This document shows positions 41,271-62,995 of a DNA stretch of 64,000 nucleotides, in pieces. The DNA is from Candidatus Saccharibacteria bacterium CPR2 (GTDB lineage Bacteria > Patescibacteriota > Saccharimonadia > Saccharimonadales > QWHN01): contig QWHN01000003.1 in NCBI GenBank assembly GCA_021404905.1, positions 23,080 to 87,079 on the forward strand. Reading direction: 5' to 3'. The notes below the pieces were generated by a model. That model was given only the letters and a program-made list of their open reading frames with translations, had not been told where the DNA came from and did no database searches. The first letter of the stretch is position 1, and every line of letters begins with the position of its first letter. The translations under genes and the position numbers were made by a program.

Positions 41271-41364
41271 AAGCGCAGCAAACATATCTTATAATCATAA
41301 GCGACTTATGTGACTCGGAGCTTTAGCTCGTGCACATGGGTGGGCGTGCATGAGCCCACAACAA

Positions 41365-45455: not shown

Positions 45456-45457
45456 AA

Positions 45458-46624
45458 ATGTCCAAAATCGTAAAAGTAATCCCGCTTTTTAATGCAATAA
45501 CTGGCACAACCGCAAGTACCTCCTATGTAGCCATCTCAGCGCAACCTATAGTTTACTGGGACAACGATGCCTACGATGGAACTGTTGAAGTGTATTTTGA
45601 GGCTGTTTTATCTACGACCTCAGGAGGAACAGCATATGCTCAAGCCTACACCAATGCTGGTTCTGCGGTGACTGGCGCCGAAGTAACCACTACGTCAACG
45701 ACTGCGACCAGAGTGCGTAGTGGCGATATAAAATCTAACCTTTCCGATAATACCGACTATGTTTTTCGCATAAAAGCAAGTTCTGGCGCGACTACCACGG
45801 TACATACGGCAAGACTGATCGTGGTTCAAAGCGGAATAGTTACGAAAACCGAAACGCAAATATCACTTGCCGGACAGTATGCGAGCACAACCAGCACCAG
45901 TGTAGTAGACCGTGGATATACTTATCTATTTTACTACGATAGTGCTCAGTTTGACGGGACCGTAACCATATATTTAGAATCAACTGGAGCAAGGACTGGA
46001 TTCGGTTCTAATTACCACTTTACGTTTTTATACGACACGTCAAATAACTTTGTTTCAGACTCTACGTTAACTTTCAATAACAACGCATATTATAGAAAGC
46101 GCTCATCGGCCATTTCACTTACGGATGGCTTAACTTATAAGGTGCGATTCCGCACTACGTCCGCATTTAGTACGGCACAAAGCGGCGACGCGCGTTTAAT
46201 TGTGCAGCAGTCTGACTTTACCAAAACGGAAACGCATTACACAATTAGAACTTCAGAACAAACTGATACAACAACTGCCGGATCAAACCTCAACGGTTAT
46301 ATTTATTGGGATAATGACGAATGGAGCGTAGTAAAAAACACCATTTATTATGAGTCTACTCTTTCAATATCAGACGGCACGAAAACCGCGTATCTGGACT
46401 TAAATGACGGTACGAGCGATTTGGTGACAAACAGCACTTCGTCTACCTCGAAAACCAGAGTTAGGAGTAGTGCCATAACGCCGTCGGACAACACAACATA
46501 CGACGCTCAACTTAGCATAAGCGCGACAACAGCCACAGCCACTTCAAACGGTCCACGGTTGATAGTCCAGTCCATAATTACCAATCCATACGGCAATCCG
46601 CCTTTTTACGGAATGAATTTTTAA
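45458..46624 (+). CDS. Hypothetical protein made of three ~125-aa tandem repeats
   Basis: Each repeat ends ARLIVVQS / ARLIVQQS / PRLIVQS and contains a Y(W/Y)D(N/S)(D/A) block. No signal peptide. Confidence 0.6.
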   Translation: MSKIVKVIPLFNAITGTTASTSYVAISAQPIVYWDNDAYDGTVEVYFEAVLSTTSGGTAYAQAYTNAGSAVTGAEVTTTSTTATRVRSGDIKSNLSDNTDYVFRIKASSGATTTVHTARLIVVQSGIVTKTETQISLAGQYASTTSTSVVDRGYTYLFYYDSAQFDGTVTIYLESTGARTGFGSNYHFTFLYDTSNNFVSDSTLTFNNNAYYRKRSSAISLTDGLTYKVRFRTTSAFSTAQSGDARLIVQQSDFTKTETHYTIRTSEQTDTTTAGSNLNGYIYWDNDEWSVVKNTIYYESTLSISDGTKTAYLDLNDGTSDLVTNSTSSTSKTRVRSSAITPSDNTTYDAQLSISATTATATSNGPRLIVQSIITNPYGNPPFYGMNF

Positions 46625-46651
46625 AGACTCTGAGTATTATATTATTTAGTT

Positions 46652-47590
46652 ATGCTGAGGGCATCTAACCAAATTGCTAAGTCGGTGATTATCATTATTT
46701 TTGTATTTTTGTTTCAAGCGCCAAATATCTCGTTTGCGCAAAACGAACCCAGCAAAGAGGGTATAGAACTAAAACCATCGAGACTCAACTACCAGCTTAG
46801 TCCTGGAGACAAAAGCGGAGACAAGTTAACCATAAAGAATCTTGGCACTTTAAGCGTTAATATAAAATTCTACTTAGAGCCGTACGGCCTGGAGGGTGAA
46901 CAATACGAACAAAAGTTCGAAAAATTGCCGGGTTGGAAAACGGCTGAGGAATGGATAAGTTTTGATAAAGACGAAATTGAGTTGAATCCTGATGAAGAAA
47001 AAACCGTATTGATTAATATTAATGTTCCCGGTAATGCTGAGGTCGGAGGCCACTACGGCGCTATTTTCGCTGAAACAACCCCGAAAGATAGCCAAACCGA
47101 AAGCATAAAAACGTCAAAACGAGTCGGCGCGCTGGTGTATTTTGAAATAGGAGGCGAATTAACTAAAAACTTAAGCGTTGAAAGTTATAGTTCAAAGTGG
47201 TGGAGCAAGAATAATACGCTAGAGTACAATTTACGCATAAAAAATTCTGGTAATACTCACGCGTTAACTAACACAACACTTTATGCCAAGCGATTTGGAT
47301 TTGGCTCATGGAGCGTGGAGAAGAAAGCAAATATTTTTCCCGGCACTATTCGCAAAATAGATATGAATATTTCTGATCTGTCGCCCGGACTTTATCGCGT
47401 CAGAGCCAAGGTAAGCGCCGATGGCCTTCAAGAAGAAACTGGAACAAGATGGGTGTTGGTAGCCTCCGTTTGGCAGATAGCATTGGCCGCACTTCTGTTA
47501 ATAGCGATAACGACCTTGATAGTTAATAAATTGAAAAACAAAAAAACACCAGCCAAGGACAGAAAACAGCAATTGGAAACTAGAATCTAG
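46652..47590 (+). CDS. DUF916/DUF3324-like cell-surface protein with C-terminal TM anchor (paralogue 1)
   Basis: Signal peptide, two beta-sandwich-like halves (IELKPSRLNYQLSPGD..LTIKNLG; GGHYGAIFAE; VGALVYFEIGGE; SPGLYRVRAKV), TM helix VWQIALAALLLIAITTLIV, and a basic tail. Confidence 0.5.
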   Translation: MLRASNQIAKSVIIIIFVFLFQAPNISFAQNEPSKEGIELKPSRLNYQLSPGDKSGDKLTIKNLGTLSVNIKFYLEPYGLEGEQYEQKFEKLPGWKTAEEWISFDKDEIELNPDEEKTVLININVPGNAEVGGHYGAIFAETTPKDSQTESIKTSKRVGALVYFEIGGELTKNLSVESYSSKWWSKNNTLEYNLRIKNSGNTHALTNTTLYAKRFGFGSWSVEKKANIFPGTIRKIDMNISDLSPGLYRVRAKVSADGLQEETGTRWVLVASVWQIALAALLLIAITTLIVNKLKNKKTPAKDRKQQLETRI

Positions 47591-47733
47591 AATCTGGAAT
47601 CTAGAATCTAGTAAAAAGTTATCAAGTTCATAAAGTTGGAGATAGCAATTAGCAACTAGGAATTAGTTTTTAAAAATATACTATTTTCTATTTCCTAATT
47701 GCTGTTTCCTAATTTCTATACGCTATACTTCAT
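47581..47733. repeat. TAGAATC tandem run followed by a family A palindromic intergenic repeat
   Basis: tagaatctagaatctggaatctagaatctag (47581-47611), then GCAATTAGCAACTAGGAATTAGTTTTTAAAAATATACTATTTTCTATTTCCTAATTGCTGTTTCCTAATTTC. Confidence 0.85.
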
Positions 47734-47735
47734 AC

Positions 47736-48278
47736 TCAATCCGTTTCTGGAGTAACTGTGTATTGAATCGTATCCGTAAATTGTCCGGCGGCTGTCGCGA
47801 GAGTGGCTTTGACGCCGTATGTCACGGTTGTTACATCACCAGACGTAAAGGGCCCGTTCGCGTCTTTGAGCAACACGTTTGACGTAGTTACACCAACAAA
47901 ATCGCTTGAACCGTCCGTATTGTAACCCCAAGTGTCGTTTGCCAAAGCCGCCGGAGATCCATTAGCGCTGGCTGGAATATTAAAACTCCCGTTTACGAGA
48001 TTGGTGTTCGCGTCCTTATCTTTTATGTAGAGTTTATAACCAATGACGTCGCTGCTGGTAACGGTCACTGTGTCGGTAGAAGTCGACAAAACGCCGGATG
48101 TCGACGGGGTGAGGTTGATTGTAATTGAGCCGGAAGTCGTAAGAGAAATAGAGGTTTCATCGCCATAAGGCACATTGGCGTTATAGATTCCGCTGCCATA
48201 TGGATTCGCATTTACATTGCCAATAAAAAAAACGGTTACTACTAGAATAAATGACAGGGTTAGAACCAACGCACGCAT
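47736..48278 (-). CDS. Secreted Thr/Ser-rich beta protein, small fimbrial-subunit-like paralogue
   Basis: Signal peptide MRALVLTLSFILVVTVFFIGNVNA. The C-terminal block AAGQFTDTIQYTVTPE is related to the C-termini of the 48344 and 49458 proteins. Confidence 0.55.
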   Translation of the reverse strand: MRALVLTLSFILVVTVFFIGNVNANPYGSGIYNANVPYGDETSISLTTSGSITINLTPSTSGVLSTSTDTVTVTSSDVIGYKLYIKDKDANTNLVNGSFNIPASANGSPAALANDTWGYNTDGSSDFVGVTTSNVLLKDANGPFTSGDVTTVTYGVKATLATAAGQFTDTIQYTVTPETD

Positions 48279-48343
48279 AGTTATTACTGTTAATATATCA
48301 CATTAAGCATAATTATTTTTTCAAAATTAGCTATAATAAATGC

Positions 48344-49381
48344 ATGAGAAGAGTATTTGGGATTGCTGGGTTATCCTTGCTGGTTGTTTTGGGTACTCTG
48401 GTTAATATTCTTTCCATGCCAAATCAAGCCAGAGCGGATGTTATCGCGGATAGAGTGATGTCTCTAACCAGTACGGCCGCTGGCGTTAGTGGAGTTGTAT
48501 ACACGTTTTCGTTCGATGTTCCTTCGACAACCATAATTAAATCTTTTAAAGCCGAGATATGCACTACTGCCAGTGGTACCTGTACTCCCCCGTCTGACTT
48601 TAGCGCCTTGTCCGCGGACTTAAATTCTCAGCCCAGCGGCTTTGGCGATGCTAGCGGATGGACTGACGAAAGCCTCACAGGAGCGATGAGAATGAAAAAC
48701 TCTACCAACTCCAGTTCTCCTGGTGCCACTCAATCCGTCGCCTTCAATACGGTTACCAACCCTTCCGATATGGCAACATCCTTTTTCGCGCGCATTTATA
48801 CGTACTCTGACGATTCTTACACGACTTTGATTGATGGTGGCACAATTGTATCGCCTACGGGCGAAGACAGTGTTTTGACAGTCAATGTAGACGAAGTTAT
48901 GTCATTTTGTATTTATACTGGCGCAAATTGTGCTGCCGGTGGATATTCGGTAAGCCTTGGTGCTATTTCAATATCAACGACCGGCTTCGGTACCAGTAAA
49001 ATGGATGTTGCAACTAACGCGGGAAGCGGTTTTAACATCACGGTTTCAGGTAATACGCTGAGCTCGGCATCGGATAGCATTATTGCTTTGGCATCTCAAA
49101 CTGCTTCTTCAGTTGGATCTAGCCAGTTTGGAATAAACTTGGTGGATAACGTTAACCCAGACGTCGGTAGCTTTAGAACGGGCGACACCAATGCGAACCC
49201 AACCAATAGCTATGACGACATTGATCTTTATAAATTTGTCAGCGGAGAAACAATTGCAAGCTCTACTCAACCCACAAACACCTCAACTTTTACAGTCGCC
49301 TACATTGCCAACATTGCCTCCGACACGGAAGCGGGAAGTTATTCTACCACTCTAACATACAACTGCTCGGCAACTTTTTAA
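48344..49381 (+). CDS. Secreted fimbrial/SCPU-like subunit paralogue
   Basis: Signal peptide ending QARA. VDEVMSFCIY..., SSQFGINL, and the C-terminus FTVAYIANIASDTEAGSYSTTLTYNCSATF. Confidence 0.55.
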   Translation: MRRVFGIAGLSLLVVLGTLVNILSMPNQARADVIADRVMSLTSTAAGVSGVVYTFSFDVPSTTIIKSFKAEICTTASGTCTPPSDFSALSADLNSQPSGFGDASGWTDESLTGAMRMKNSTNSSSPGATQSVAFNTVTNPSDMATSFFARIYTYSDDSYTTLIDGGTIVSPTGEDSVLTVNVDEVMSFCIYTGANCAAGGYSVSLGAISISTTGFGTSKMDVATNAGSGFNITVSGNTLSSASDSIIALASQTASSVGSSQFGINLVDNVNPDVGSFRTGDTNANPTNSYDDIDLYKFVSGETIASSTQPTNTSTFTVAYIANIASDTEAGSYSTTLTYNCSATF

Positions 49382-49457
49382 TTTTAATTTAAGGTTGACT
49401 AGTAGCATTATTTTACATTATTCTTAAACCATAAGAGAAAAGGATGCCGTGAGGGGT

Positions 49458-50513
49458 ATGAAATCAAAAAGAATTAGATATTCGGCATTGTTGTTGGCGG
49501 TTCTGCTTGTTGTAGCGCAGCTCGTGTTTATAACGGACAAAGGCGAGGCGGCTGCAACAACTTCAAAATCCGACATTTTATCTCGGCTGAAAACCAGTAC
49601 GGCTGCGAACCATGAAATAAAATTTGTTACTCCAAGTGGTGTTGATGCTGGGGAGACGATCACGTTAACGTTCGATGCTGGATTCAGCATGGGCTCAGTC
49701 GCGTTTGGAGATATAGATTTGGCGGAAGATAGTGACAATGATTGTACTAATGGCGGTTTTAGCGACAAAACTTTGGCCGCAACTCCCTCGGGAGCTACTT
49801 GGGGAGCAGCTATATCCGGGCAGGTTTTAACCTTCACGAGTGGTACGGGGACGATTACCGCGGACAGGTGTGTCCAAGTAGAAATTGGCACCAATGCTTC
49901 CGGCGGTAGTAATCAAATTACGAACCCAGGCACTGGTGGCACTAAAGAGGTAAACATTGGTGGCACATTTGGGGATACTGGCGATATAGCGGTCGTAATA
50001 CTCAGTGATGATCAAGTTGTTGTTACGGCAACAGTTGATGAGTCTATGACTTTCAGTATTTCGGACAATACCATAGAATTTGGCACATTGTCTGCCAGTG
50101 ATGATTTCTTCGCTGATGATTCCGGAGGTAACGCGACGGAAGTAGAAGCCCATAACCTTGTGGCTGGGACTAATGCTTCGGGTGGGTATGGTATTACCAT
50201 AAACGGTAGTACGCTAACTGCGGGCGCGTATACCATTGATGCGATTGGCGCTTCAAACACTGCCTCCGCTACAGGGACGGAACAATATGGTATTCGCATG
50301 ACTGCATCGGGTGGGTCAGGTACTGTCAGTACTCCTTATGCTGCAGCGGGTTTTGCTCTTGATACTGGTTCCTTCCCAGATCAAGTGGCGTCCTCGACCG
50401 GCGCGTCTGCTAACACGACTTATTCTGTGCGCTATCTCGCTAATATAGCGTCAAACACTGAAGCTGGTGCATATAGCGCCACTATGACATACGTAGCAAC
50501 CGCGATTTTTTAG
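49458..50513 (+). CDS. Secreted fimbrial/SCPU-like subunit paralogue
   Basis: Signal peptide. VDESMTFSISDNTIEFGTL, TEQYGIRM, and the C-terminus YSVRYLANIASNTEAGAYSATMTYVATAIF, parallel to the 48344 protein. Confidence 0.55.
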   Translation: MKSKRIRYSALLLAVLLVVAQLVFITDKGEAAATTSKSDILSRLKTSTAANHEIKFVTPSGVDAGETITLTFDAGFSMGSVAFGDIDLAEDSDNDCTNGGFSDKTLAATPSGATWGAAISGQVLTFTSGTGTITADRCVQVEIGTNASGGSNQITNPGTGGTKEVNIGGTFGDTGDIAVVILSDDQVVVTATVDESMTFSISDNTIEFGTLSASDDFFADDSGGNATEVEAHNLVAGTNASGGYGITINGSTLTAGAYTIDAIGASNTASATGTEQYGIRMTASGGSGTVSTPYAAAGFALDTGSFPDQVASSTGASANTTYSVRYLANIASNTEAGAYSATMTYVATAIF

Positions 50514-50572
50514 GTTTTCATTAAAAATAATGAGACAGCCTAATTCATTTGCTACAATGTTGTGAGATTGTT

Positions 50573-51613
50573 ATGAAGAATATACTTCTAAGGTATTCTC
50601 TGGTTCTAATCGGGGCTTCGATTGGTCTATTGCTGTTTTTGCAAATAAATAATGTCAATGCCGCGCAAAGTATTACTCAAGGTCAGGGGTTTGAGATATC
50701 TCCACCGCTTATTGATCTTGCGACGAATCCAGGCAGGAAAATCCCAGTCAAGCTAAAACTCACTAATATTACGGATGCCAGCTTTAGGGTATCCGCAAAA
50801 GTTTATGATTTTGAACCAAAAGGGGAAACCGGTACGGCGAGCATCATAGAGGATCCTAATATAGAACCTCCTTTTTCGCTCAAAGCCTGGGTATCTGAGG
50901 TTGATGAGTTTGATTTCGCTCCAAAAGAAAAAAAGGAAATTGATATAACAATAGATGTTCCGGAAAACGCTGAGCCTGGTGGACATTTTGGGCTGATACG
51001 CTTCTCAGGGAAATTACCCGAAGTAGGCGAAGGCCAAGTGGGTCTGTCTGCCAGTATAGACAGTTTGATACTGCTAAAAGTTGCAGGTGAGACGAATGAA
51101 CGTTTGTTCGTCAAGGAATTTTACAGCGGGCCGAGTCACGGCACGCTTAAAAAACAAAAGTTTTTCGAAAAAGCGAATTTGGTTTTCGCGACTCGTCTTG
51201 AAAACGAAGGTAATGTACATGTTAAACCGGTTGGAAATATCGAAATATTTAATGTGCTAAATAAAAAAGTTGCGAATATTGAATTCAATAACACCGGCGG
51301 GAATGTTTTGCCAGGTAGTATTCGCAGATTTGAAAATAACTTTGAAGGGCGTAATATGTTTGGGCCGTATAAAGCCCAGCTAACACTTACCTATGGCGCA
51401 GGAAACACTTTATCATCAGAAAAAATTTTATTCTGGATTTTACCCTATAAAATAATTGCTCTAATCAGTGCAATAATAATTCTTTTAGCCTTAATTATCA
51501 CCAAATTCGTCAAAAGATACCGAAAATACGCCAGGATTGCCAAGAAGGCTGAAGAAGCGAAGGATGATAAAGAAGAAACTAAAAACAAAAAGAAAAAAAC
51601 TGAGAAAAAGTAA
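50573..51613 (+). CDS. DUF916/DUF3324-like cell-surface protein with C-terminal TM anchor (paralogue 2)
   Basis: Same architecture as 46652-47590: FEISPPLIDLATNPGRKIPVKLKLTNIT, GGHFGLIRFSG, SLILLKVAGE, TM helix IIALISAIIILLALIITKFV, and a Lys-rich tail. Confidence 0.5.
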   Translation: MKNILLRYSLVLIGASIGLLLFLQINNVNAAQSITQGQGFEISPPLIDLATNPGRKIPVKLKLTNITDASFRVSAKVYDFEPKGETGTASIIEDPNIEPPFSLKAWVSEVDEFDFAPKEKKEIDITIDVPENAEPGGHFGLIRFSGKLPEVGEGQVGLSASIDSLILLKVAGETNERLFVKEFYSGPSHGTLKKQKFFEKANLVFATRLENEGNVHVKPVGNIEIFNVLNKKVANIEFNNTGGNVLPGSIRRFENNFEGRNMFGPYKAQLTLTYGAGNTLSSEKILFWILPYKIIALISAIIILLALIITKFVKRYRKYARIAKKAEEAKDDKEETKNKKKKTEKK

Positions 51614-53812: not shown

Positions 53813-53877
53813 TCATTGATAATTTATTGAAAACTGTAAACTGTTAATTGAAAAGTGTTTTTGCACAGCAAAAACGA
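53813..53877 (+). promoter_or_regulatory. AT-rich upstream module (family E) ending at the 5' end of the tRNA-like sequence
   Basis: TCATTGATAATTTATTGAAAACTGTAAACTGTTAATTGAAAAGTG... aligns at about 75% with 55315-55377 upstream of tRNA-Gly and partly with 9300-9345. Confidence 0.5.
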
Positions 53878-54115
53878 GGCGCTATAGCTCAGTTGGTAAA
53901 GCGGAGGCTTGATAAGCGTCAACCCTGAGCCTGTCGAATGGATTGACCTTTATAGCAAGCTGATATAATTATTCAATCAGCGAGTGTTAGAGCCTTGTGT
54001 CCCTGGTTCGGTGAACACAGCTCCTCAGTCAAACGAAAATGCTTGCATTTTCAATTGGCGAGGAGCGAGGAAGGAGGTCGAAGCCAACAGGCAAGACCGA
54101 TGTCCAGGTGGCGAA
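53878..54115 (+). pseudogene. Disrupted or decayed tRNA (Phe/Ile-like) upstream of tRNA-Phe
   Basis: A perfect 5' half GGCGCTATAGCTCAGTTGGTAAAGCGGAGGCTTGATAA is followed by ~76 nt of unrelated sequence. Then comes AGAGCCTTGTGTCCCTGGTTCG (19/22 identical to tRNA-Phe), ~90 nt more, then TGTCCAGGTGGCGAA. The 3' acceptor pairs at only 5/7 positions. Confidence 0.5.
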
Positions 54116-54144
54116 ATCTTGTAGTTACTTTAAACTAGTTGTGA

Positions 54145-54220
54145 GGCACCTTAGCTCAGTTGGTAGAGCAGAGGCTTGAAGAGCCTTGTGTCCTCGGTTC
54201 GAGTCCGAGAGGTGCCACCA
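54145..54220 (+). tRNA. tRNA-Phe(GAA)
   Basis: GGCACCT/AGGTGCC acceptor, anticodon loop TTGAAGA, T-loop TTCGAGT, CCA. Confidence 0.93.
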
Positions 54221-55876: not shown

Positions 55877-55918
55877 TTATATTAGCTCGCCTGAAAGATT
55901 AAATATTTCAACCAGGTG

Positions 55919-55985
55919 CTTTAGTTTATAATCATTGACGGCACTGATAGCAGATGTTTGAAATGCGTCAACTATCTTGCACCAA
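55919..55985 (+). repeat. 67-nt promoter-like repeat, copy 1
   Basis: CTTTAGTTTATAATC...GATGTTTGAAATGCGTCAACTATCTTGCACCAA. 61/67 identical to 56576-56642, with the last 34 nt identical. Confidence 0.85.
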
Positions 55986-56538: not shown

Positions 56539-56575
56539 GTAACTTGTCCGATAGCTGAAATTCCTTGGCTAGTAA

Positions 56576-56642
56576 CTTTAGTTTATAATCGTTGGTAGCA
56601 CTAATAGCTGATGTTTGAAATGCGTCAACTATCTTGCACCAA
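56576..56642 (+). repeat. 67-nt promoter-like repeat, copy 2
   Basis: See 55919-55985. Confidence 0.85.
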
Positions 56643-56715
56643 ATGTTTAATTTTGCTTCGCCGACATTTCACTCGATTGAAATTGAACATCCCAAAAGTG
56701 TATAATTTAGCCACT

Positions 56716-56994
56716 ATGAATGGCGTTGCAACTAAAGGTGATATCAAAGATATCATGAAGCAAATTGATCATATGGCGGCAAAGATTGTCGAAAGGTTTG
56801 ATCGTATAGAGAAATCACTCGAGGAAAAAGCAACAAAAGATGATATTCGTAAAATTATGGATACATTGGATTTCATATCGAAGCGTCAAGAAATATCTGA
56901 CGATGAACGGCTAGTTATGGGCCATCAGCTTGAGCGTTTAGATCAATGGACTCATGAACTTGCGAAAAAAATAGGTTACAAACTATCTACTTGA
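56716..56994 (+). CDS. Small coiled-coil protein (paralogue of 57084-57410)
   Basis: ATG 56716, preceded by TATAAT at 56701-56706. The C-terminus LERLDQWTHELAKKIGYKLS parallels IARLERWIEQIAEKTGVKLT in the neighbour. Confidence 0.5.
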   Translation: MNGVATKGDIKDIMKQIDHMAAKIVERFDRIEKSLEEKATKDDIRKIMDTLDFISKRQEISDDERLVMGHQLERLDQWTHELAKKIGYKLST

Positions 56995-57083
56995 TTAAAA
57001 TCGATCTGCAACCTGTATCAACTCAACCCAAACATTTTTCAAACATTTGAGCCTTACTAGGCTCTTTTTGTTATAATTGCGTT

Positions 57084-57410
57084 ATGACAGAAATTACAAA
57101 GTTAGAAAAGAAGTTGGACAAACGGTTTGAAAAAATTGACAAACGGTTTGATGATCTGACTATGCTAATGAGCGATTTTGCAAATGACGTTAATGCCAGA
57201 TTCGACCAACAAGATGCCAGATTCGACCGAATTGAAGCCCGGCTCGATAAATTAGAGGCAAGCCATCAAAGACTACTGAGTACGATAGACGCTTTAATTA
57301 AACGCATAGACGATTACGAAACCGAACTTGTAGCAAGAGATCACAAAATCGCAAGGCTCGAACGTTGGATCGAACAAATAGCAGAAAAAACCGGCGTAAA
57401 GCTGACATAA
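57084..57410 (+). CDS. Small coiled-coil protein (paralogue of 56716-56994)
   Basis: Heptad-rich sequence with repeated RFD/RFE units (KRFEKIDKRFDD, ARFDQQDARFDRIEARLDKLE). Confidence 0.5.
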   Translation: MTEITKLEKKLDKRFEKIDKRFDDLTMLMSDFANDVNARFDQQDARFDRIEARLDKLEASHQRLLSTIDALIKRIDDYETELVARDHKIARLERWIEQIAEKTGVKLT

Positions 57411-57490
57411 TACCATCACTCGCACCGAGTAGTATCAATTGTAAGACAAGCTCATTATGTTTTTGCTTTCTGCTGTTTTACAATTGAGCC

Positions 57491-58282
57491 ATGAAGCATA
57501 AGCAATATGGGTTCGCGTTAGTTGAAGTTTTTCTTGTTATCTTGGTTGTAGTTGTTATTGGTGTGGCCGGTTATTTAGTGCTAAATAAAAAATCGACTGG
57601 CAAAAATGGCTCAGGACAATCGAAAACTTCAAACGAAGAAAGTGCTAGTCAAGCCAAGATAAAACACCTTGGAGTTAATCTGGATTATTATAACCCTGCC
57701 ACCAACAAAGCCGGTGATTTTGTGTTTACCAAAGCAAAGTTTACGTCAGGGATACAGCTGTTATTCACGGATTTTGGATATGTCATTGAGGGTGAAAATA
57801 CTGACACAGGGCAAGACAAGGCTAATCCGCAACCCACCTTTATTTTACCGCTTGGCTCAAAAGTATATTCGCCGGTTGACGGCGAGGTGCAAGATGTACC
57901 ACAACTTTATAGTAGTGACTACAGCGTAATGATAAGAACCGAAGACAGCGAATTGGTATTCGAAACCGAGCACGTTATAAACGTTAAAGTAAAGAAAGGC
58001 GATAAAGTTAAAGCCGGCCAGGAAATCGCCGAAGTCAGTGGTTACTCCGCGCATGGATATGATGGCATGGGCCTGGTTGAAATCGGCGTGCTTAGGGGCG
58101 GGAACCCTCCGGAACATCTTTGCCCGTTTGATTATTTAGATGATTCTATAAAAGATGAAACTATAAACAAAATCAACGCTCTTAAAAAATCTTGGGAAGA
58201 ATATCGGGGCGATGATAACTTGTATGATGAGTCAAAAGAAGTTACGCCAGGTTGTCTAACGCAAGATCCAATACCTGGTTAA
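57491..58282 (+). CDS. Type IV pilin-like N-terminus fused to a degenerate LytM/M23-like domain
   Basis: Prepilin motif KQYGFALVEVFLVILVV (G/F...E5). VYSPVDGEV and VKKGDKVKAGQEIAEVSG match the M23 barrel, but the HxH position reads GLVEIG. Confidence 0.6.
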   Translation: MKHKQYGFALVEVFLVILVVVVIGVAGYLVLNKKSTGKNGSGQSKTSNEESASQAKIKHLGVNLDYYNPATNKAGDFVFTKAKFTSGIQLLFTDFGYVIEGENTDTGQDKANPQPTFILPLGSKVYSPVDGEVQDVPQLYSSDYSVMIRTEDSELVFETEHVINVKVKKGDKVKAGQEIAEVSGYSAHGYDGMGLVEIGVLRGGNPPEHLCPFDYLDDSIKDETINKINALKKSWEEYRGDDNLYDESKEVTPGCLTQDPIPG

Positions 58283-58377
58283 ATAAATTTTATTTTCAGT
58301 AAATAAAACTAAAGCTCTGATTTCAATATTGTGGCTAAATAATATATAGTTTATAGAGGTAACCTGAGGATTTATTA

Positions 58378-58788
58378 ATGGGAGCCTGGCCCTGGCGTGA
58401 ATGGCATAAGAGAGCAGAATGTAGGCAGCAGTTTTCTGAAGAAGGAGACAAAAAAGAAGCGGCGCGGATATTTTTCGGGCCGGAAACGACAAGTGGCAGA
58501 AAACATGAAAATAAAGAAGAAATTATCGCAAGATTAAAAACAGCTGCGGAAATTTGTGGGCGCTGCGCGGTCATTAACGAGTGTTATCAACAGTTACAAA
58601 ATATTGAGCTGAAAGTAAGAGATAACAAAGGAGGTATCTGGGCTGGTCATCTGGTGTTTAAACAGCCTAGGGGTAGCGGAACACTTGCTGAAACAGCAAT
58701 TTTGCCACTAGAAGAAGCGATCCAACATTTTGAAGAACATACCAGAAAAAGACAGCCTCAAGAAAAACCAGACACTGACGTTGCTTAA
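58378..58788 (+). CDS. WhiB-like (Wbl) iron-sulfur transcription factor
   Basis: W..AEC(15)...FFGPE...AAEIC(60)GRC(63)AVINEC(69) gives the C-Xn-C-X2-C-X5-C pattern. The GGIWAGH turn corresponds to G(V/I)WGG. It aligns well by eye with WhiB1. Confidence 0.75.
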   Translation: MGAWPWREWHKRAECRQQFSEEGDKKEAARIFFGPETTSGRKHENKEEIIARLKTAAEICGRCAVINECYQQLQNIELKVRDNKGGIWAGHLVFKQPRGSGTLAETAILPLEEAIQHFEEHTRKRQPQEKPDTDVA

Positions 58789-58874
58789 TATTTATAAATT
58801 GCTTTTAGCAAACAACAATCCTTGCAGTCTTAGATTTGCCAAGATACGATATTAGAGTAGTATTTTGTCTGTAT

Positions 58875-58948
58875 GGCGCGTTGGCCGAGGAGTTAGGCAC
58901 ATCTCTGCAAAAGATGTTACAGCGGTGCGAGTCCGCTACGCGCCTCCA
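58875..58948 (+). tRNA. tRNA-Cys(GCA)
   Basis: GGCGCGT/ACGCGCC acceptor, anticodon loop CTGCAAA, U73 discriminator, CCA. The T-loop reads TGCGAGT (G at position 55), which is unusual. Confidence 0.8.
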
Positions 58949-58968
58949 TACTTCGCGTAAAGCTTCGT

Positions 58969-59148
58969 ATGGCAAGCCATTCTAATCCTATCACGGATGT
59001 TGATGCCCTGATTAGACTAAGCCATATTAATGGCGACAAGTCAGATAACCGACTAGAGAACTTAAGAATACTATGCCCAAATTGCCATAGCCTTCAACCC
59101 ACACATCGTGATAAAAATAAGAAGGTAAGATATGCGCGGGTGACGTAA
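58969..59148 (+). pseudogene. HNH endonuclease fragment (59 codons) wedged between two tRNA genes
   Basis: MASHSNPITDVDALIRLSHINGDKSDNRLENLRILCPNCHSLQPTHRDKNKK carries the H-N-(N)-H/CxxCH core only. The last 15 nt overlap tRNA-Leu(TAA). It is below the track size cut-off. Confidence 0.6.
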
Positions 59149-59220
59149 CTGGTAGCCGTACTAGACTTAAAATCTGGGGGTCGCAAGACCGTGTGGGTTC
59201 GAGTCCCACCCCGCGCACCA
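59134..59220 (+). tRNA. tRNA-Leu(TAA)
   Basis: GCGCGGG/CCCGCGC acceptor, anticodon loop CTTAAAA, long variable arm GGGTCGCAAGACCGT, T-loop TTCGAGT, CCA. Confidence 0.88.
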
Positions 59221-59273
59221 CGCTCTACACAAAGTTTCCTGTGGTAAGCTTTCGGCGATGATACAATAGATTT

Positions 59274-60032
59274 ATGAATTTGATAGTTAACAATTTGAAG
59301 ATACATGTTCAAGATGTTGGCAAACGTTCTAAACCCTGCGTTTTGTTTTTACACGGATGGGGTGCTTCGGGGAATAGTTTTTCAAAGTTGATTGAAGAGA
59401 TTGGTGATAATTACCGATGCGTAGCTCCAGATTTGCCCGGTTTTGGTGCGAGTGAAATACCAACGAAAGCTTGGGGCGTCAAGGAATACGCGAATTTTGT
59501 ACACGACTTAACCGCTAAATTAGGAATAAAAAAGATTCATGCGATTTGCAGCCATTCCATGGGTGGCCGGATTGCCATGCACATTACTGCCCAAAGGATT
59601 CTCAGGCCTGGGAAGCTGATCTTAATCGGATCCCACGGGATAGTGCAGGCAAAGTCTTTGCGAAATCGCGCATATAAGGTAGTAGCGAAAGTGGGCAAAA
59701 AAGCAACACTTGTACTGCCCAACCGTGTTCGTTCGCAGCTTAGAGATAAATTGTATAGACAAGCAGGGGCTAGTGATTATCTTACCGCTGGAGCTATGCG
59801 CGATACCTTTATAAATTTAATAAATACAGATAGTCAGCCGGACGCGGCCTTAATAGATATTCCTTCCCTGTTAATCTACGGTAAGAATGATAAACAAACA
59901 CCGCCGTCTTTTGGCAAGATATTTCATGAATTAATGCCCAACTCCAAGTTAAATATTGTCTCTGGAGCCGATCATTTTATACACGAGACTGAACCAAAAA
60001 TTGTTGCAACTCAACTTAAGGAGTTTTTGTGA
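59274..60032 (+). CDS. Alpha/beta-fold hydrolase
   Basis: HGWGASG, nucleophile elbow SHSMGG, C-terminal GADHFIHE. Confidence 0.8.
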   Translation: MNLIVNNLKIHVQDVGKRSKPCVLFLHGWGASGNSFSKLIEEIGDNYRCVAPDLPGFGASEIPTKAWGVKEYANFVHDLTAKLGIKKIHAICSHSMGGRIAMHITAQRILRPGKLILIGSHGIVQAKSLRNRAYKVVAKVGKKATLVLPNRVRSQLRDKLYRQAGASDYLTAGAMRDTFINLINTDSQPDAALIDIPSLLIYGKNDKQTPPSFGKIFHELMPNSKLNIVSGADHFIHETEPKIVATQLKEFL

Positions 60033-61480
60033 TACAGAGAATATTAAGTTTTTATCACCCAAATTATTACAAAACTTTAGTAGCTATGCTGCAAGAGTGC
60101 GAGTACGAGGCTAATCAATTTTACAAATGGTTTTGGCGCAGAAAGGATTTTGATTTTAAGAGGCACGAAAATTCTTACAAGCCTACCGCGAAATCCAAAT
60201 TACTATTGCTTATAATGCTTACGCTAGCTGCTATCTTGTCCGTGTTTAGCCTCGCACTTATTGTTAAGTGGTACATCTCCGGATTTGATATGTTCTTTTT
60301 ATTTTGGGGACTTTCTCTTTTTGTTGGCACGCCTTTGTTTATAGCGGCTATTGTTCCAATACTTGTAAAAGTAGGCGAAATTATTATTCAAAAACCTAAA
60401 GAAAAGCAAATTATTGCCGAGGCTGCGAGGGTTTTTAAAAACTCCAAAGCGAAGGTCATAGTAGTTGCTGGAAGTTACGGCAAAACATCAATGAAAGAAA
60501 TTTTGTTTGCCATTTTGTCCTCAGAGAAAAAAACTGCCGCCACCCCGGGCAATTACAATACTCCTCTAGGAATAGGCAAATTTGTAAAAAAGCTTGACGG
60601 TGACGAAGAAGTGATAATTGTCGAGATGGGCGAATATAAACCCGGAGACATAAAAGAGCTTTGTGAAATAGTAGACCCGGATATTGGCGTAATTACAGGT
60701 ATTAATGAGCAGCACCATGAGAGATTTAAAACCATCGATGCTGCTATTAGCACAATCCATGAGCTTAGCGATTATTTAGACGATAAGCCTGTTTATATTA
60801 ATGCCCAGAGCCCCTACCAGCGCGAAGAAGTTAGCCCTTCAGCACATTCTTACAGCCAAAGCGGCGTGGGAGAGTGGAAAGTAAAAAACGCAAAAACAGG
60901 CCTAAAGGGTACAGAATTTGATCTGGTTAGCCCAAAGCAAACCATCAAGATAAAAACTAAATTATTAGGGCTGCATCAAATTGGGCCTATCTGTGCTGCG
61001 GTTGCTATCGCAAAGAACTTAGGGCTGGACAATACAGCGATTGAGAATGCGGTAAAAAGCATTCCTCAAGCCAAGCACAGGCTGCAAATATTAAACCAAT
61101 TTGGCGCGACTATAATCGATGATAGTTACAACGGAAATCCAACTGGGTTTGAGGCAGGAATAAAATTTTTGGCTGATCTAAAAAATGCCGTGCGAAAAGT
61201 TTATGTTACTCCCGGGATATTTGAACTTGGAGATAAGGAGGAAGAAATTCATTATAATTTGGGCAAAAAAATAGGTGAAACAGCAATAGATGAGGTGGTT
61301 TTTGTTAGAACTAATGGCGCGGAGATTATGGCCAAGGGTATCGCCGAAGCCAAGGGAAACCAAAATATAACCTGGGTCGATGATCCGTCTGATTTTTATA
61401 GCCATTTGGATTTATACATAAAAGCAGGTGATGTAGTAATGCTCCAAAATTGCGCGCCGGAGCATTATCTGAAAAAATAA
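60029..61480 (+). CDS. murF: MurF-like Mur ligase with a membrane-spanning N-terminal region
   Basis: P-loop VVAGSYGKTSMKE, IIDDSYNGNP, and GDVVMLQ near the end. The first ~125 aa hold three hydrophobic helices instead of the usual soluble N-domain. Confidence 0.7.
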   Translation: MIQRILSFYHPNYYKTLVAMLQECEYEANQFYKWFWRRKDFDFKRHENSYKPTAKSKLLLLIMLTLAAILSVFSLALIVKWYISGFDMFFLFWGLSLFVGTPLFIAAIVPILVKVGEIIIQKPKEKQIIAEAARVFKNSKAKVIVVAGSYGKTSMKEILFAILSSEKKTAATPGNYNTPLGIGKFVKKLDGDEEVIIVEMGEYKPGDIKELCEIVDPDIGVITGINEQHHERFKTIDAAISTIHELSDYLDDKPVYINAQSPYQREEVSPSAHSYSQSGVGEWKVKNAKTGLKGTEFDLVSPKQTIKIKTKLLGLHQIGPICAAVAIAKNLGLDNTAIENAVKSIPQAKHRLQILNQFGATIIDDSYNGNPTGFEAGIKFLADLKNAVRKVYVTPGIFELGDKEEEIHYNLGKKIGETAIDEVVFVRTNGAEIMAKGIAEAKGNQNITWVDDPSDFYSHLDLYIKAGDVVMLQNCAPEHYLKK

Positions 61481-61486
61481 AGCCTC

Positions 61487-62704
61487 ATGAAATATCACCA
61501 CAAACCATCAGGGTCTGACTCTTTGCGGGAAATTTTGCCGCGTGAACCTCTGTTATTAATGGGCGCTGGTCCTGTGCCAATAGCCGAGCCGGTGTCTCGA
61601 GCTAATGGAGTGATTATCAATCATCTTGGCGATACAATGTCGCGAGTAATAACCGGCGTCCAAAAAATGTCCCAATATGTATTTCAAACTAAATCAGACA
61701 AAATTATCGGAGTTGCCGGGCCTTCATCCGCGGCTATGGAAATGACAATAACCAATTTACTCTGGCCGGGCCGCAAAGTATTGGTACTAAAAAATGGAAC
61801 GTTCAGCGCGCGTTTTGGAGAAATGGCGGAAGCTGTTGGTGCAGATGTAGACTATATTGAGCCAAAAACCCAACCTGGCTATATCGAGGCAAGGGCTGTG
61901 AAAAACGCGCTAAAGAATAAACAATATGATGTGCTTACTATAACTCACGGCGAGACATCATGTGGTGTATTGAATCCTGAAATTGAAGAAATATCATTCT
62001 TGGCCAAAGAGCGTGGGGTATTAATAATCGTAGACGCCGTTGTGACGCTAGGCGCAATGCCTGTTTTTATGGAAAAATGGGGGCTGGACGCAGTTATAGC
62101 TGGCGGTCAAAAAGCGCTGGGCTCAATTCCGGGGATTTCTCTGGTTGCGTTTTCAGAATCTGCGTGGGGTGTAATCGAAAATCGCAAAAATACTATTCCA
62201 CACTGGTGTTTGGACGCACGTAAGGCTTGGGAATTTTGGGGTTTTCATAACTATCACTACACTGCACCGGTTCCAGGAGTGTTAGCTTTGCATGAAGCAC
62301 TAAATCTGATAGAAGAGGAAACATTGGCAGTTAGATTTGCCCGCCATAGCATGAGCTCAAAAGCGCTTCAAGAGGCAATTAAGGCCATGGGTTTAGATTT
62401 ATACGCGCCAGAGGATATGCGCCTTAATTCCGTTGTAGCGATAGAATCTCCAGATAGCGCAAGCAATGCAAAAATACGAAACTATATGTCAGAGACTTTT
62501 GGCGTTGAAATCTCCGGCGCGTTTGGGCTGGATATAATGCGAATAGGCCAAATGGGCGAACAGTGCCGAGCGCACAATTTATTTAAAACTCTCTATGCTC
62601 TTGGAATTTCATGCAGATATTATGGGGTGGATGTTAATATCGCAAAAGCGATGTCAGTACTTGAGGAAAACCTGGCTCAAGATCCGGAAACGTTTGTACC
62701 ATAG
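61487..62704 (+). CDS. Class-V pyridoxal-phosphate aminotransferase (alanine-glyoxylate / serine-pyruvate type)
   Basis: ITHGETSCG, VDAVVTLG, GGQKALGSIPG (PLP lysine). Confidence 0.75.
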   Translation: MKYHHKPSGSDSLREILPREPLLLMGAGPVPIAEPVSRANGVIINHLGDTMSRVITGVQKMSQYVFQTKSDKIIGVAGPSSAAMEMTITNLLWPGRKVLVLKNGTFSARFGEMAEAVGADVDYIEPKTQPGYIEARAVKNALKNKQYDVLTITHGETSCGVLNPEIEEISFLAKERGVLIIVDAVVTLGAMPVFMEKWGLDAVIAGGQKALGSIPGISLVAFSESAWGVIENRKNTIPHWCLDARKAWEFWGFHNYHYTAPVPGVLALHEALNLIEEETLAVRFARHSMSSKALQEAIKAMGLDLYAPEDMRLNSVVAIESPDSASNAKIRNYMSETFGVEISGAFGLDIMRIGQMGEQCRAHNLFKTLYALGISCRYYGVDVNIAKAMSVLEENLAQDPETFVP

Positions 62705-62995
62705 CGATTAGGAACTGGCAATCAGGAAATAGAAAATAGTATATTTTTAAAAACTAGTTCCTAATTCCCAACTTCTAGTTTTCAATTTTCATTCGCTTGG
62801 TAGCGAATCAATTTTCAAATTCTTTTTCCTAATTGCCAATTGCTATTTGCTCTCTTGCAGGGTGGCACCCTGCAAGAACAGATAGTGGCCCCTGGAGTTG
62901 AAAGGAGCCACCCTTACTACTGTTCTCTCCTAATTCCCAATTCCTATTTTCTAGTTTCCAATTTCTGTTTTCTGTTCCCGGCCGGCTATTTCATT
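62705..62995. repeat. Composite intergenic repeat block: family A copy, a family D TTGCAGGG palindrome (62855-62915) and more TAGGAA-type words
   Basis: GGAAATAGAAAATAGTATATTTTTAAAAACTAGTTCCTAATTCC (family A core). TTGCAGGGTGGCACCCTGCAAGAACAGAT is related to the reverse complement of 532-596. Confidence 0.8.

What the first reader, a model, noticed from the sequence alone, without database searches (positions are those of the whole stretch)
58378..58788. WhiB-like Fe-S transcription factor in a low-GC, CPR-like genome
The protein has the Wbl hallmarks in order: W..A.C, FF.PE, A.EIC..C.V..EC (C-X2-C-X5-C) and the GIW(G/A)G turn. It aligns by eye with WhiB1. To my knowledge, Wbl proteins are essentially restricted to Actinobacteria and their phages. 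Here the gene sits among tRNA-linked accessory genes, and its 5' part is GC-richer (32/60 at 58381-58440). Acquisition from an actinobacterial host or an actinophage is an attractive explanation and would be a marker of the host association.
Basis: partly seen in the sequence, partly recalled or inferred. Interest (0 to 1): 0.58.

Follow-up and report, generated by a model that had tools for sequence, protein, structure and literature searches.

The report
Divergent WhiB-like protein in CPR bacterium
A small gene in an ultra-small (CPR/Patescibacteria) bacterium encodes a real but very divergent member of the WhiB-like iron-sulfur regulators, which the literature describes as exclusive to Actinobacteria and their phages; it is an old resident of this lineage, not a recent import.

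Summary
ORF 58378-58788 (+) encodes a 136-aa protein. It matches Pfam Whib above the curated cut-off (29.5 vs 23.6 bits, E 1e-6) and an actinobacterial/phage Wbl profile by hhalign (97.6%, E 3e-12). It has exactly four Cys (C15, C60-x2-C63-x5-C69), the GIWAG turn and all four 'aromatic patch' residues used by Wbl proteins to dock on sigma region 4.

The window is ordinary chromosome of a Patescibacteria MAG deposited as 'Ca. Saccharibacteria bacterium CPR2'. The same gene in the same setting occurs in at least 23 independent assemblies.

The recent-transfer reading is not supported:
- Gene GC (43.8%) is like the window (41.7%), and the GC-rich 5' stretch is unremarkable.
- An exhaustive HMMER search of 1.84 billion protein representatives found one true relative (44% identity), at the syntenic position in a related uncultured organism.
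- All other Wbls share about 26-41% identity over the core. That is as distant as the deepest splits inside the family.
- Crude trees lean weakly towards actinophage Wbls.

Best reading: a new, insertion-rich Wbl subfamily fixed in a narrow CPR lineage, probably from an old transfer out of the actinobacterial/actinophage pool. Host association cannot be inferred. Cluster binding and sigma binding are untested, and the organism's sigma-70 gene was not available.

The parts
58378..58788 (+). wbl-like gene, 136 aa plus stop. Cluster ligands are Cys15, Cys60, Cys63 and Cys69. Aromatic patch is W9, F32, F33 and W88. Beta-turn is G86-I-W-A-G90. The lineage-specific C-terminal extension covers residues 91-136.
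   Evidence: ORF. Pfam Whib 29.5 bits, above the gathering cut-off of 23.6. PHROG 472. hhalign 97.6%. Alignments A1 and A2. It is the only Wbl-profile hit among 656 ORF segments in the window.
58283..58377 (+). 95-nt AT-rich upstream intergenic region with a Shine-Dalgarno GAGG at 58366-58369. The promoter is not resolved.
   Evidence: Sequence. The strict sigma-70 scan calls no site here. In the relative L011 the upstream gene is on the opposite strand, so there the wbl gene must have its own promoter.
58875..58948 (+). tRNA-Cys(GCA), starting 87 nt after the wbl stop codon. It is the conserved downstream neighbour in both species that carry the gene.
   Evidence: ARAGORN. Rfam tRNA 53.7 bits. 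84% nucleotide match to L011 2511-2597.
58969..59148 (+). Remnant (59 aa) of an HNH homing endonuclease between tRNA-Cys and tRNA-Leu. It is context, not part of the regulator.
   Evidence: Pfam HNH_3 and HNH. PHROG 10822 E 2.5e-16. A full-length 161-aa copy sits at the same place in L011, E 4.9e-44.
57491..58282 (+). Upstream neighbour: a membrane-anchored M23 peptidase. It is not conserved next to wbl in the relative.
   Evidence: Pfam Peptidase_M23 33 bits. L011 has an unrelated 152-aa membrane protein on the opposite strand instead.
57084..57410 (+). 108-aa coiled-coil protein. It is a syntenic anchor shared with the relative's locus.
   Evidence: 65% amino-acid identity ungapped to L011 1013-1339. 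71% nucleotide identity.

Best explanation
The ORF encodes a bona fide but highly divergent WhiB-like (Wbl) protein that is a stable chromosomal gene of a CPR/Patescibacteria bacterium.

Inferred mechanism, by homology with WhiB1, 3, 4, 5, 6 and 7:
- Cys15, Cys60, Cys63 and Cys69 hold one oxygen- and NO-labile [4Fe-4S] cluster.
- The cluster pocket, lined by the aromatic patch W9, F32, F33 and W88, docks the monomer on region 4 of the cell's primary sigma factor.
- Cluster loss or nitrosylation then changes transcription of a regulon.
- The protein has a neutral pI, and its conserved but acidic C-terminal extension carries only a short RKR patch in place of an AT-hook or long basic tail. It therefore probably acts mainly as a sigma-bound cofactor with weak or no DNA contact of its own.

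Inferred origin: the gene was already present in the common ancestor of at least two related CPR species and has been kept under purifying selection. It most likely entered that lineage long ago from the actinobacterial/actinophage Wbl pool. It has since diverged into its own subfamily, with four insertions relative to WhiB1.

Shown here: family membership by sequence, the conserved motifs, the chromosomal context, the synteny, and the absence of close relatives. Inferred, not shown: cluster binding, sigma binding, the regulatory role, and the direction and age of transfer.
For: Family membership:
- Pfam Whib above the gathering cut-off; PHROG WhiB families; hhalign 97.6%, E 3.3e-12.
- With the CPR-free Wbl profile A4, P0001 scores 34.4 bits and P0002 40.0 bits. 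Accepted members score similarly: Mtb WhiB7 46.0 bits and WhiB6 21.6 bits.

Motifs:
- The four Cys and W88 are invariant in the alignment with WhiB1, 3, 7 and three phage Wbls.
- W9, F32, F33 and W88 align with the aromatic patch AP1-4 (W3, F17, F18, W60 of WhiB1). PMC13013590 shows this patch mediates sigma-A region 4 binding. All four residues are conserved in the 44%-identical homologue.

Fold: the top Foldseek hits of the AF2 model are WhiB3 and WhiB1 in the PDB and WhiB proteins in BFVD, but none is significant.

Resident, not contaminant:
- The 64-kb window carries housekeeping genes: MnmA, AlaRS, FtsA, MltG, Obg, UvrA, UvrC, LigA, TatC and MurF. GC is even across it.
- The identical gene with identical neighbours appears in at least 23 contigs from many sequencing runs.

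Old and selected:
- Syntenic orthologue in L011.
- Between the two orthologues pS is 0.85 (saturated) and pN is 0.40.
- Composition matches the genome.

No donor: one relative in 1.84e9 representatives; none in GTDB representatives, IMG/VR or JGI metagenomes; BLAST scores to other Wbls of 20-42 bits, equal to those between the deepest Wbl subfamilies.

Lean towards phage Wbls: the sister group is all-phage in 176 of 200 NJ bootstraps, and all 153 phage-database hits of P0002 are actinophage WhiB genes.
Against: - No biochemical evidence exists.
- The AF2 models are poor (pLDDT 48.7 and 56.0) and the fold matches are not significant (E about 0.1-1).
- The organism's own sigma-70 gene is not in the window or in the 7.6 kb of upstream extension, so the docking site could not be checked.
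- The one Patescibacteria RpoD seen by chance (L070) ends ...ALEKIQKMAGIEKLRDY and lacks the His-Pro pair that Wbls need on sigma-A region 4.
- The C-terminal part is acidic (pI 5.8) and has no AT-hook, so a DNA-binding role is doubtful.
- The phage-ward tree placement rests on 85-90 columns, NJ distances and a cellular sample limited to WhiB1-, WhiB3- and WhiB7-like sequences.
- The transfer direction is inferred only from how lopsided the family's known distribution is.
Confidence: 0.6

Rival explanations
1. Recent horizontal acquisition from the current actinobacterial host or one of its phages, so that the gene marks the host association.
For: - Wbls are otherwise reported only from Actinobacteria and actinophages.
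- Every annotated-database hit is an actinophage or Rhodococcus Wbl.
- The gene lies next to a strain-variable cassette and a homing-endonuclease remnant.
- The first 123 nt are 52% GC.
- From my own knowledge: cultured Saccharibacteria live on Actinobacteria.
Against: - The best identity to any non-CPR Wbl is 26-41% over the core, with E no better than 1e-3.
- No hit other than one CPR-type relative turned up in 1.84e9 representatives.
- Whole-gene GC and GC3 match the genome.
- A syntenic orthologue exists in a second, diverged species; tRNA-Cys is only 84% identical and synonymous sites are saturated.
- The gene lies in the conserved part of the locus in all strain contigs.
- The organism is deeply divergent. 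Its MurF shares at most 42% identity with any GTDB species representative. It is labelled CPR2, and I know of no identified host for it.
Confidence: 0.05
2. An ancient, vertically inherited non-actinobacterial Wbl lineage. On this view Wbls arose outside or before Actinobacteria, and this is a relic of a once broader distribution in CPR.
For: - The origin of wbl genes is stated to be unknown.
- The CPR pair is as distant from every sampled Wbl as the deepest intra-family splits.
- The gene is fully adapted in composition and syntenic in two species.
Against: - Only two members were found by exhaustive HMMER.
- None was found in GTDB species representatives with the subfamily patterns.
- None was found in 1.19 Mb around murF of 80 other Patescibacteria species.
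- In rough trees the pair nests among actinophage Wbls rather than outside all Wbls.
Confidence: 0.12
3. The protein keeps the Wbl scaffold but no longer works through the cell's own sigma factor. It might be a redox or disulfide protein, or act on another partner. In the most exotic version it acts on the sigma-A of an actinobacterial host, as phage Wbls do.
For: - A Patescibacteria RpoD seen by chance lacks the His-Pro docking pair.
- The C-terminal region is acidic and lacks an AT-hook.
- The extension conserved with the relative (LVF...ILPL[ED]EAI[QK]H[FY]E) has no counterpart in known Wbls.
- Phage Wbls do bind host sigma-A region 4.
Against: - All four aromatic-patch residues that make the sigma contact are conserved in both homologues. 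That is hard to explain without a sigma-like partner.
- Neither protein has an N-terminal hydrophobic stretch or twin-arginine motif that would suggest export (sequence).
- No secretion genes flank the wbl gene.
- The RpoD observation is one sequence from a different Patescibacteria class.
Confidence: 0.12
4. Artefact: a mis-binned or chimeric actinobacterial or phage fragment, or a chance ORF.
For: The genome is a metagenome-assembled genome, and Wbls are typical of Actinobacteria.
Against: - The window has continuous composition of about 42% GC, far below what I know of typical Actinobacteria.
- CPR-type housekeeping genes lie on both sides.
- The same junctions appear in at least 23 independently assembled contigs.
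- Profile E-values range from 1e-6 to 3e-12.
- The orthologue is conserved with non-synonymous divergence far below synonymous divergence.
Confidence: 0.01

Closest known systems
WhiB-like (Wbl) family, Pfam PF02467; structurally characterised members are M. tuberculosis WhiB1 (PDB 6ONO/5OAY) and WhiB3 (8CWR/8CYF)
   Same: - Small single-domain protein.
- Four Cys in the pattern C-Xn-C-X2-C-X5-C.
- FF(G)P(E/D) after helix 1.
- G-I-W-(A/G)-G turn.
- All four aromatic-patch positions (W3, F17, F18, W60 of WhiB1) are matched by W9, F32, F33 and W88.
- 27% identity to WhiB1 and to WhiB3 in the alignment.
- WhiB3 and WhiB1 are the top PDB hits by profile and by fold.
   Different: - Host phylum is CPR, not Actinobacteria.
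- Relative to WhiB1 it has about 9 extra residues between Cys1 and FF, about 8 between FF and CxxC, about 5 between Cys4 and the turn, and about 13 after the turn.
- No SExER-type helix 4 directly follows the turn.
- The tail is acidic or neutral with only an RKR patch, where WhiB1 has a basic tail.
- NCBIfam gives no hit.
Actinophage Wbls (PHROG 472 and 12112), e.g. Gordonia phage Gmala1 gp46, Rhodococcus phage ReqiDocB7 WhiB, Mycobacterium phage MaryV gp81
   Same: - These are the best-scoring annotated relatives. Gmala1 gives 33.7% over residues 8-90 and 51% over residues 54-90. It carries the same GIWAG turn and CG.CPVIN.C string.
- ReqiDocB7 gives 40.8% to P0002.
- They are the sister group in crude NJ trees.
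- MaryV gp81 also has a long extension after the turn.
   Different: - E-values are only 1e-3 to 3.
- The phage proteins are usually shorter (66-112 aa) and lack the CPR-specific insertions and the ILPLxEAIxH element.
- The window gene is chromosomal, with no phage structural genes nearby.
M. tuberculosis WhiB7 and WhiB6 (divergent accepted Wbls; PDB 7KIF, 8D5V)
   Same: They are about equally far from the family consensus. Against the same WhiB1/3-weighted profile, WhiB7 scores 41.5-46 bits, WhiB6 21.6 bits, and the CPR proteins 34-40 bits. This shows that such divergence is compatible with sigma-A region 4 binding.
   Different: WhiB7 has a C-terminal AT-hook (RGRPRK), which is absent here. 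WhiB6 lacks two aromatic-patch residues, whereas the CPR protein keeps all four.

Membership tests
Wbl (WhiB-like) family, PF02467 | Significant match to the family profile above the curated threshold | tested here: met
   - Pfam Whib 29.5 bits against a gathering cut-off of 23.6, E 1.1e-6.
- hhalign against 32 Wbls gives 97.6%, E 3.3e-12.
- The CPR-free HMM gives 33.8 bits, against 5.6 bits for the next ORF segment in the window.
Wbl (WhiB-like) family, PF02467 | Four invariant cluster-ligating cysteines, C-Xn-C-X2-C-X5-C | tested here: met
   C15, C60, C63 and C69 are the only cysteines in the protein. They are invariant columns in alignments with WhiB1, 3 and 7, three phage Wbls and 119 database Wbls. 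They are conserved in P0002. The spacing from Cys1 to Cys2 is 44 residues, against 27 in WhiB1.
Wbl (WhiB-like) family, PF02467 | Gly-rich beta-turn G[V/I]WGG after helix 3 | tested here: met
   G86-I-W-A-G90 here and GIWGG in P0002. The GIWAG variant also occurs in the Gordonia phage Gmala1 and RobinSparkles WhiB proteins.
Wbl (WhiB-like) family, PF02467 | Aromatic patch AP1-4 (W3, F17, F18, W60 of WhiB1) that mediates sigma-A region 4 binding (PMC13013590) | tested here: met
   W9, F32, F33 and W88 occupy the aligned columns and are conserved in P0002. The test is by sequence alignment only, not by structure.
Wbl (WhiB-like) family, PF02467 | Wbl fold: four helices wrapped round the cluster | tested here: inconclusive
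Wbl (WhiB-like) family, PF02467 | Binds an O2/NO-sensitive [4Fe-4S] cluster | not testable with these tools
   This needs anaerobic purification or reconstitution with UV-visible or EPR spectroscopy.
Wbl (WhiB-like) family, PF02467 | Binds region 4 of the primary sigma factor through the sigma His516-Pro517 pair | not testable with these tools
   No sigma-70 gene is in the window or in the 7.6 kb of upstream extension. A Patescibacteria RpoD from another class (L070) has Lys-Met where the His-Pro pair would be, so the point is genuinely open.
Wbl (WhiB-like) family, PF02467 | Basic C-terminal tail or AT-hook for DNA contact (present in many subfamilies but not all) | tested here: inconclusive
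   Only the short patches R123-K-R125 here and RRDKK in P0002 are present. Residues 91-136 have pI 5.8 and the whole protein 6.97, and there is no RGRP motif.
Wbl (WhiB-like) family, PF02467 | Occurrence in Actinobacteria or actinophages. This is a statement about distribution, not a structural criterion. | tested here: not met
   The host is a Patescibacteria/CPR MAG. This is the point of interest and does not bear on homology.

The most novel reading that the evidence does not exclude
The Wbl is not an ordinary house regulator. On this reading it is a tool of the epibiotic lifestyle, captured from an actinophage and used, as phage Wbls are, to bind the sigma-A region 4 of an actinobacterial host cell. 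At the very least it would be a molecular fossil showing that this host-unknown CPR2-type lineage lives or lived on Actinobacteria. Three observations fit this: the aromatic patch is intact, the tail is acidic and unlike a DNA-binding tail, and at least one Patescibacteria sigma-70 lacks the His-Pro docking pair. The evidence does not exclude it, but there is no export signal and no secretion context.
Probability: 0.05. Interest if true: 0.85.

Novelty: new member of a known kind. Interest (0 to 1): 0.45.

Why it matters
Wbl proteins are described, as recently as 2026, as exclusive to Actinobacteria and their phages, with an unknown origin (PMC13013590). A conserved chromosomal Wbl with every functional motif intact in a CPR bacterium is a clean exception.

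It would show that the sigma-bound Fe-S regulator design can be kept under selection outside Actinobacteria. It offers a natural test of how much of the Wbl-sigma interface is portable. It also gives the field an outgroup-like, insertion-rich sequence.

For CPR biology it is one of few candidate redox or NO sensors in a reduced genome. It is a possible, though currently unreadable, trace of gene flow from the actinobacterial virosphere.

The significance is limited. The clade has only two members, no donor can be named, and nothing can yet be said about the host.

Tried and rejected
- **Word-indexed protein search with the single protein and with the two-sequence profile:** only the protein itself and P0002 were found.
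- **Exhaustive phmmer over 1.84e9 representatives:** it returned P0002 plus one spurious hit. That hit is a 623-aa Armatimonadetes repeat protein with no Wbl Cys pattern, and I rejected it.
- **Pattern plus tblastn scans with the CPR profile:** nothing in GTDB species representatives, IMG/VR or JGI metagenomes.
- **Second GTDB scan, spent on the neighbouring MurF to look for syntenic Wbls:** 80 Patescibacteria loci (1.19 Mb), none with a Wbl. The best MurF identity was only 42%, so no close genome was available.
- **Search for the organism's sigma-70:** not in the window. Extending 7.6 kb upstream through the AlaRS look-up gave ATP synthase and hypothetical genes only. Short-read contigs break at a repeat at 62753, so no extension downstream was possible.
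- **Fe-S assembly link:** the class-V aminotransferase at 61487-62704 looked like a possible cysteine desulfurase. It scores far better as an AGXT/PhnW-type transaminase, so I rejected the link.
- **Prophage context:** the neighbours have no phage structural hits. Only the HNH remnant and generic M23 and coiled-coil matches appear.
- **dN/dS:** synonymous sites are saturated, so only pN much lower than pS can be stated.
- **Literature:** I found no paper on WhiB/Wbl in Saccharibacteria, Patescibacteria or CPR. None was found that names the MAG or the sequencing runs either.
- **NCBIfam:** no Wbl model hit. I treat this as uninformative.
Full report
**1. Observation**

GAGG lies 8 nt before the start.

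The protein is MGAWPWREWHKRAECRQQFSEEGDKKEAARIFFGPETTSGRKHENKEEIIARLKTAAEICGRCAVINECYQQLQNIELKVRDNKGGIWAGHLVFKQPRGSGTLAETAILPLEEAIQHFEEHTRKRQPQEKPDTDVA. It has exactly four cysteines: C15, C60, C63 and C69, giving C-x44-C-x2-C-x5-C. It also has FFGPE at 32-36 and GIWAG at 86-90.

The statistical support is solid:
- Pfam Whib (PF02467) scores 29.5 bits against a gathering cut-off of 23.6, E 1.1e-6.
- PHROG 472 'WhiB transcriptional factor' gives E 1.6e-7.
- hhalign of the CPR pair against 32 actinobacterial and phage Wbls gives 97.6% probability, E 3.3e-12.
- A Wbl HMM built without any CPR sequence scores this ORF at 33.8 bits. The next best of 656 ORF segments in the window scores 5.6 bits.

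The local GC count of 32/60 is right but ordinary. 8.7% of 60-nt windows reach it. Gene GC is 43.8% against 41.7% for the window, and GC3 is 33.6%.

**2. Whose genome**

The exact protein is MCE7936828.1 / DYH10_03530 of 'Candidatus Saccharibacteria bacterium CPR2', an unclassified member of Saccharimonadota.

The window is ordinary chromosome with even composition. It carries MnmA, AlaRS, FtsA, MltG/YceG, Obg, exonuclease I, UvrA, UvrC, LigA, TatC, MurF, nine tRNAs and many cell-wall hydrolases.

The MurF next door finds only Patescibacteria-type relatives among GTDB species representatives, and none above 42% identity. The organism is therefore deeply divergent from every sampled species. 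It may belong to the CPR2 class rather than to Saccharimonadia proper; that is my inference from the depositor's name and the low identities.

The identical protein is on record in at least 23 contigs from many sequencing runs. These contigs are 99.6-100% identical to the window from 56577 to 62753. Contamination or chimerism is excluded.

**3. Locus anatomy**

The gene order is:
1. tRNA-Gly (55378)
2. a strain-variable cassette
3. a 127-aa protein and a 108-aa coiled-coil protein
4. a membrane-anchored M23 peptidase (57491-58282)
5. wbl
6. tRNA-Cys, starting 87 nt after the wbl stop
7. a 59-aa HNH endonuclease remnant
8. tRNA-Leu
9. an alpha/beta hydrolase, MurF and a class-V aminotransferase

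Other strains carry different cargo upstream of 56577. Examples are Mrr, APH and NUDIX in one set, and an HTH protein and a Trp-repressor in another. The segment from the 127-aa gene through wbl to the aminotransferase is constant. The gene thus sits beside a hot spot but not inside it. No neighbour has a phage structural signature.

**4. Relatives**

An exhaustive HMMER search of 1.84 billion cluster representatives returned one real relative, P0002 (141 aa, 44% identity). It also returned one spurious repeat protein.

P0002 comes from short contigs of runs ERR4450749-57. There it lies between a homologue of the 108-aa coiled-coil gene (65% amino-acid identity) and tRNA-Cys (84% nucleotide identity). 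These are followed by a full-length copy of the same HNH endonuclease and by tRNA-Leu. That is synteny, so the gene predates the split of two clearly diverged species.

Synonymous sites between the two are saturated (pS 0.85), while pN is 0.40. The conserved positions include the four Cys, W9, FFGP, GIWxGH and a subfamily-specific C-terminal element, LVF...ILPL(E/D)EAI(Q/K)H(F/Y)E. The gene is under purifying selection.

Scans with the pair's profile found nothing in GTDB representatives, IMG/VR or JGI metagenomes. No Wbl lies within 10 kb of murF in 80 other Patescibacteria species.

**5. Relation to known Wbls**

- In the phage collection, every WhiB-annotated match is in an actinophage. The best are Gordonia phage Gmala1 (33.7% over residues 8-90, E 0.07) for the window protein and Rhodococcus phage ReqiDocB7 (40.8%, E 1e-3) for P0002. 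The window protein also gave eight weak matches (E 7) to Pseudomonas phages under tail-sheath or hypothetical genes. All 153 P0002 hits are to actinophages.
- In plasmids there is one weak Rhodococcus hit.
- BLAST scores of the CPR proteins to WhiB1, WhiB3, WhiB7 and phage Wbls are 20-42 bits. That is the same range as between the deepest Wbl subfamilies.
- Against one WhiB1/3-weighted profile, the CPR proteins score 34-40 bits, WhiB7 46 bits and WhiB6 21.6 bits.

Crude NJ trees on 85-90 columns keep the pair together in 62-77% of bootstraps. They put the pair next to actinophage Wbls, with an all-phage sister group in 176 of 200 bootstraps. This is a lean, not a result. Branches are long, and my cellular sample covers only WhiB1-, WhiB3- and WhiB7-like proteins, because the last word-indexed search listed only its top 120 hits.

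**6. Mechanism**

The Wbl literature defines three motifs (PMC13013590):
- the four cluster cysteines;
- the Gly-rich turn;
- an aromatic patch AP1-4 (W3, F17, F18, W60 of WhiB1), which forms the docking surface for the His516-Pro517 pair of sigma-A region 4.

That paper reports this mode of binding for all seven M. tuberculosis Wbls and for phage Wbls. In alignment A2 the window protein has W9, F32, F33 and W88 at AP1-4, and so does P0002.

I therefore take the most likely function to be that of a monomeric [4Fe-4S] redox/NO/O2-responsive factor bound to region 4 of the primary sigma factor.

Differences from WhiB1:
- insertions of about 9, 8, 5 and 13 residues;
- a neutral pI (6.97) and an acidic C-terminal part (pI 5.8);
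- only an RKR patch, and no AT-hook.

These differences suggest little direct DNA contact.

Structure prediction did not settle the fold. pLDDT was 48.7 with 2 sequences and 56.0 with 121. WhiB3 and WhiB1 are the top three PDB hits, and WhiB-named proteins make up most of the top viral hits, but with E of 0.1-1.

The main open point is the partner. The organism's rpoD is not in the window or in 7.6 kb of extension. The single Patescibacteria RpoD that happened to lie in a fetched locus ends ...RQIEAKALEKIQKMAGIEKLRDY (L070, another class). That places Lys-Met where, from my memory of the sequences, E. coli and B. subtilis sigma factors have the His-Pro of LRHPSRS.

**7. Comparison and novelty**

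Every sequence-defined criterion of the Wbl family that could be tested is met. The fold and the C-terminal tail tests were inconclusive, and cluster binding and sigma binding are untestable here. I file the protein as a member: a new, two-member, insertion-rich subfamily.

What is unusual is the host. A 2026 paper still states that Wbls are found exclusively in Actinobacteria and actinophages and that their origin is unknown. I found no paper mentioning a Wbl in Saccharibacteria, Patescibacteria or CPR.

There is no compositional anomaly and no donor, and the gene has a syntenic orthologue. Old transfer from the actinobacterial/actinophage pool into the ancestor of a narrow CPR clade is the most economical history. 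The evidence for it is the family's lopsided distribution plus a weak tree.

**8. Verdict**

This is a real and mildly surprising finding: a known kind of protein in an unexpected phylum, with a testable mechanistic question of whether the Wbl-sigma interface exists in a CPR cell. Interest is 0.45. The most novel reading not excluded is a phage-style appropriation of an actinobacterial host's sigma-A, or a fossil of such a host association. I give that about 5%.

Noticed in passing
window 35941-36057 (-): A full-length match to the Rfam LOOT RNA motif (RF03000): 82.6 bits against a gathering score of 46.4. It lies between tRNA-Leu(GAG) and the part of ORF 35273-36169 (-) that encodes Lipoprotein_Ltp repeats. 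The mechanical ORF start probably overcalls into the RNA.
   Followed up: no
window 4317-4361, 16809-16927, 41363-41522, 47628-47743, 62701-62978: A dispersed family of 50-105-nt AT-rich, partly palindromic intergenic repeats built from TAGGAA/TTCCTA-type units around TATATTTTTAAAAA. Copies are up to 89-91% complementary between sites. All short-read contigs of this species end at 62753, inside one copy. These may be REP/MITE-like elements or bidirectional terminators.
   Followed up: partly
window 55883-55985 and 56540-56642; loci L001-L004: A 103-nt direct repeat (78% identity) provides the shared 5' end (MFEMRQLSCT...) of two unrelated ORFs. It also marks the edge of a strain-variable cassette downstream of tRNA-Gly. 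Other strains carry either DUF3850, SDR, NUDIX, His_Phos, peptidase S51, APH and Mrr, or HTH, Trp-repressor and AstE_AspA genes there.
   Followed up: partly
window 58969-59148 (+); L011 2662-3147: A decayed HNH homing endonuclease (59 aa left) lies between tRNA-Cys and tRNA-Leu. The related organism has the intact 161-aa gene at the same site (PHROG 10822, E 4.9e-44).
   Followed up: yes
window 53876-53917 (and to about 54030): A tRNA-like 5' half that is 83% identical to the start of tRNA-Phe (54143-54184). After about 75 nt there is a degenerate copy of the 3' half. Neither ARAGORN nor Rfam calls it. It is probably a pseudo-tRNA or an interrupted duplicate.
   Followed up: partly
window 44442-51613 (+): Six consecutive + strand ORFs of 312-388 aa, plus a 180-aa ORF on the - strand among them (47736-48278), with no Pfam match at 1e-5. 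They are followed by a Glucodextran_B-domain protein. This may be a lineage-specific surface-protein block.
   Followed up: no
window 12762-13970, 20990-21859 (-), 22600-23304, 23403-24881, 57491-58282: An unusual density of peptidoglycan hydrolases in 64 kb: LysM-CHAP, Amidase_2, glucosaminidase, VanY and M23. This fits the cell-wall-attacking lifestyle described for CPR epibionts; that link is from my own knowledge.
   Followed up: no
L070 6065-7405 (+) (Patescibacteria group bacterium SO_2017_LW3_40): This organism's RpoD ends ...VTRERIRQIEAKALEKIQKMAGIEKLRDY. It has no His-Pro pair at the position used by Wbl proteins to dock on sigma region 4. The comparison with other bacteria's LRHPSRS motif is from my memory.
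   Followed up: partly
window 4534-4646 and 7893-8005: A 113-nt direct repeat at 96% identity, lying upstream of two unrelated genes: a 603-aa protein and FtsA. It may be a shared promoter/leader or a small mobile element.
   Followed up: no
L098 1-971 (upstream of the window): F-type ATP synthase beta and epsilon subunit genes lie about 9 kb upstream of AlaRS, so this CPR organism keeps an ATP synthase.
   Followed up: no
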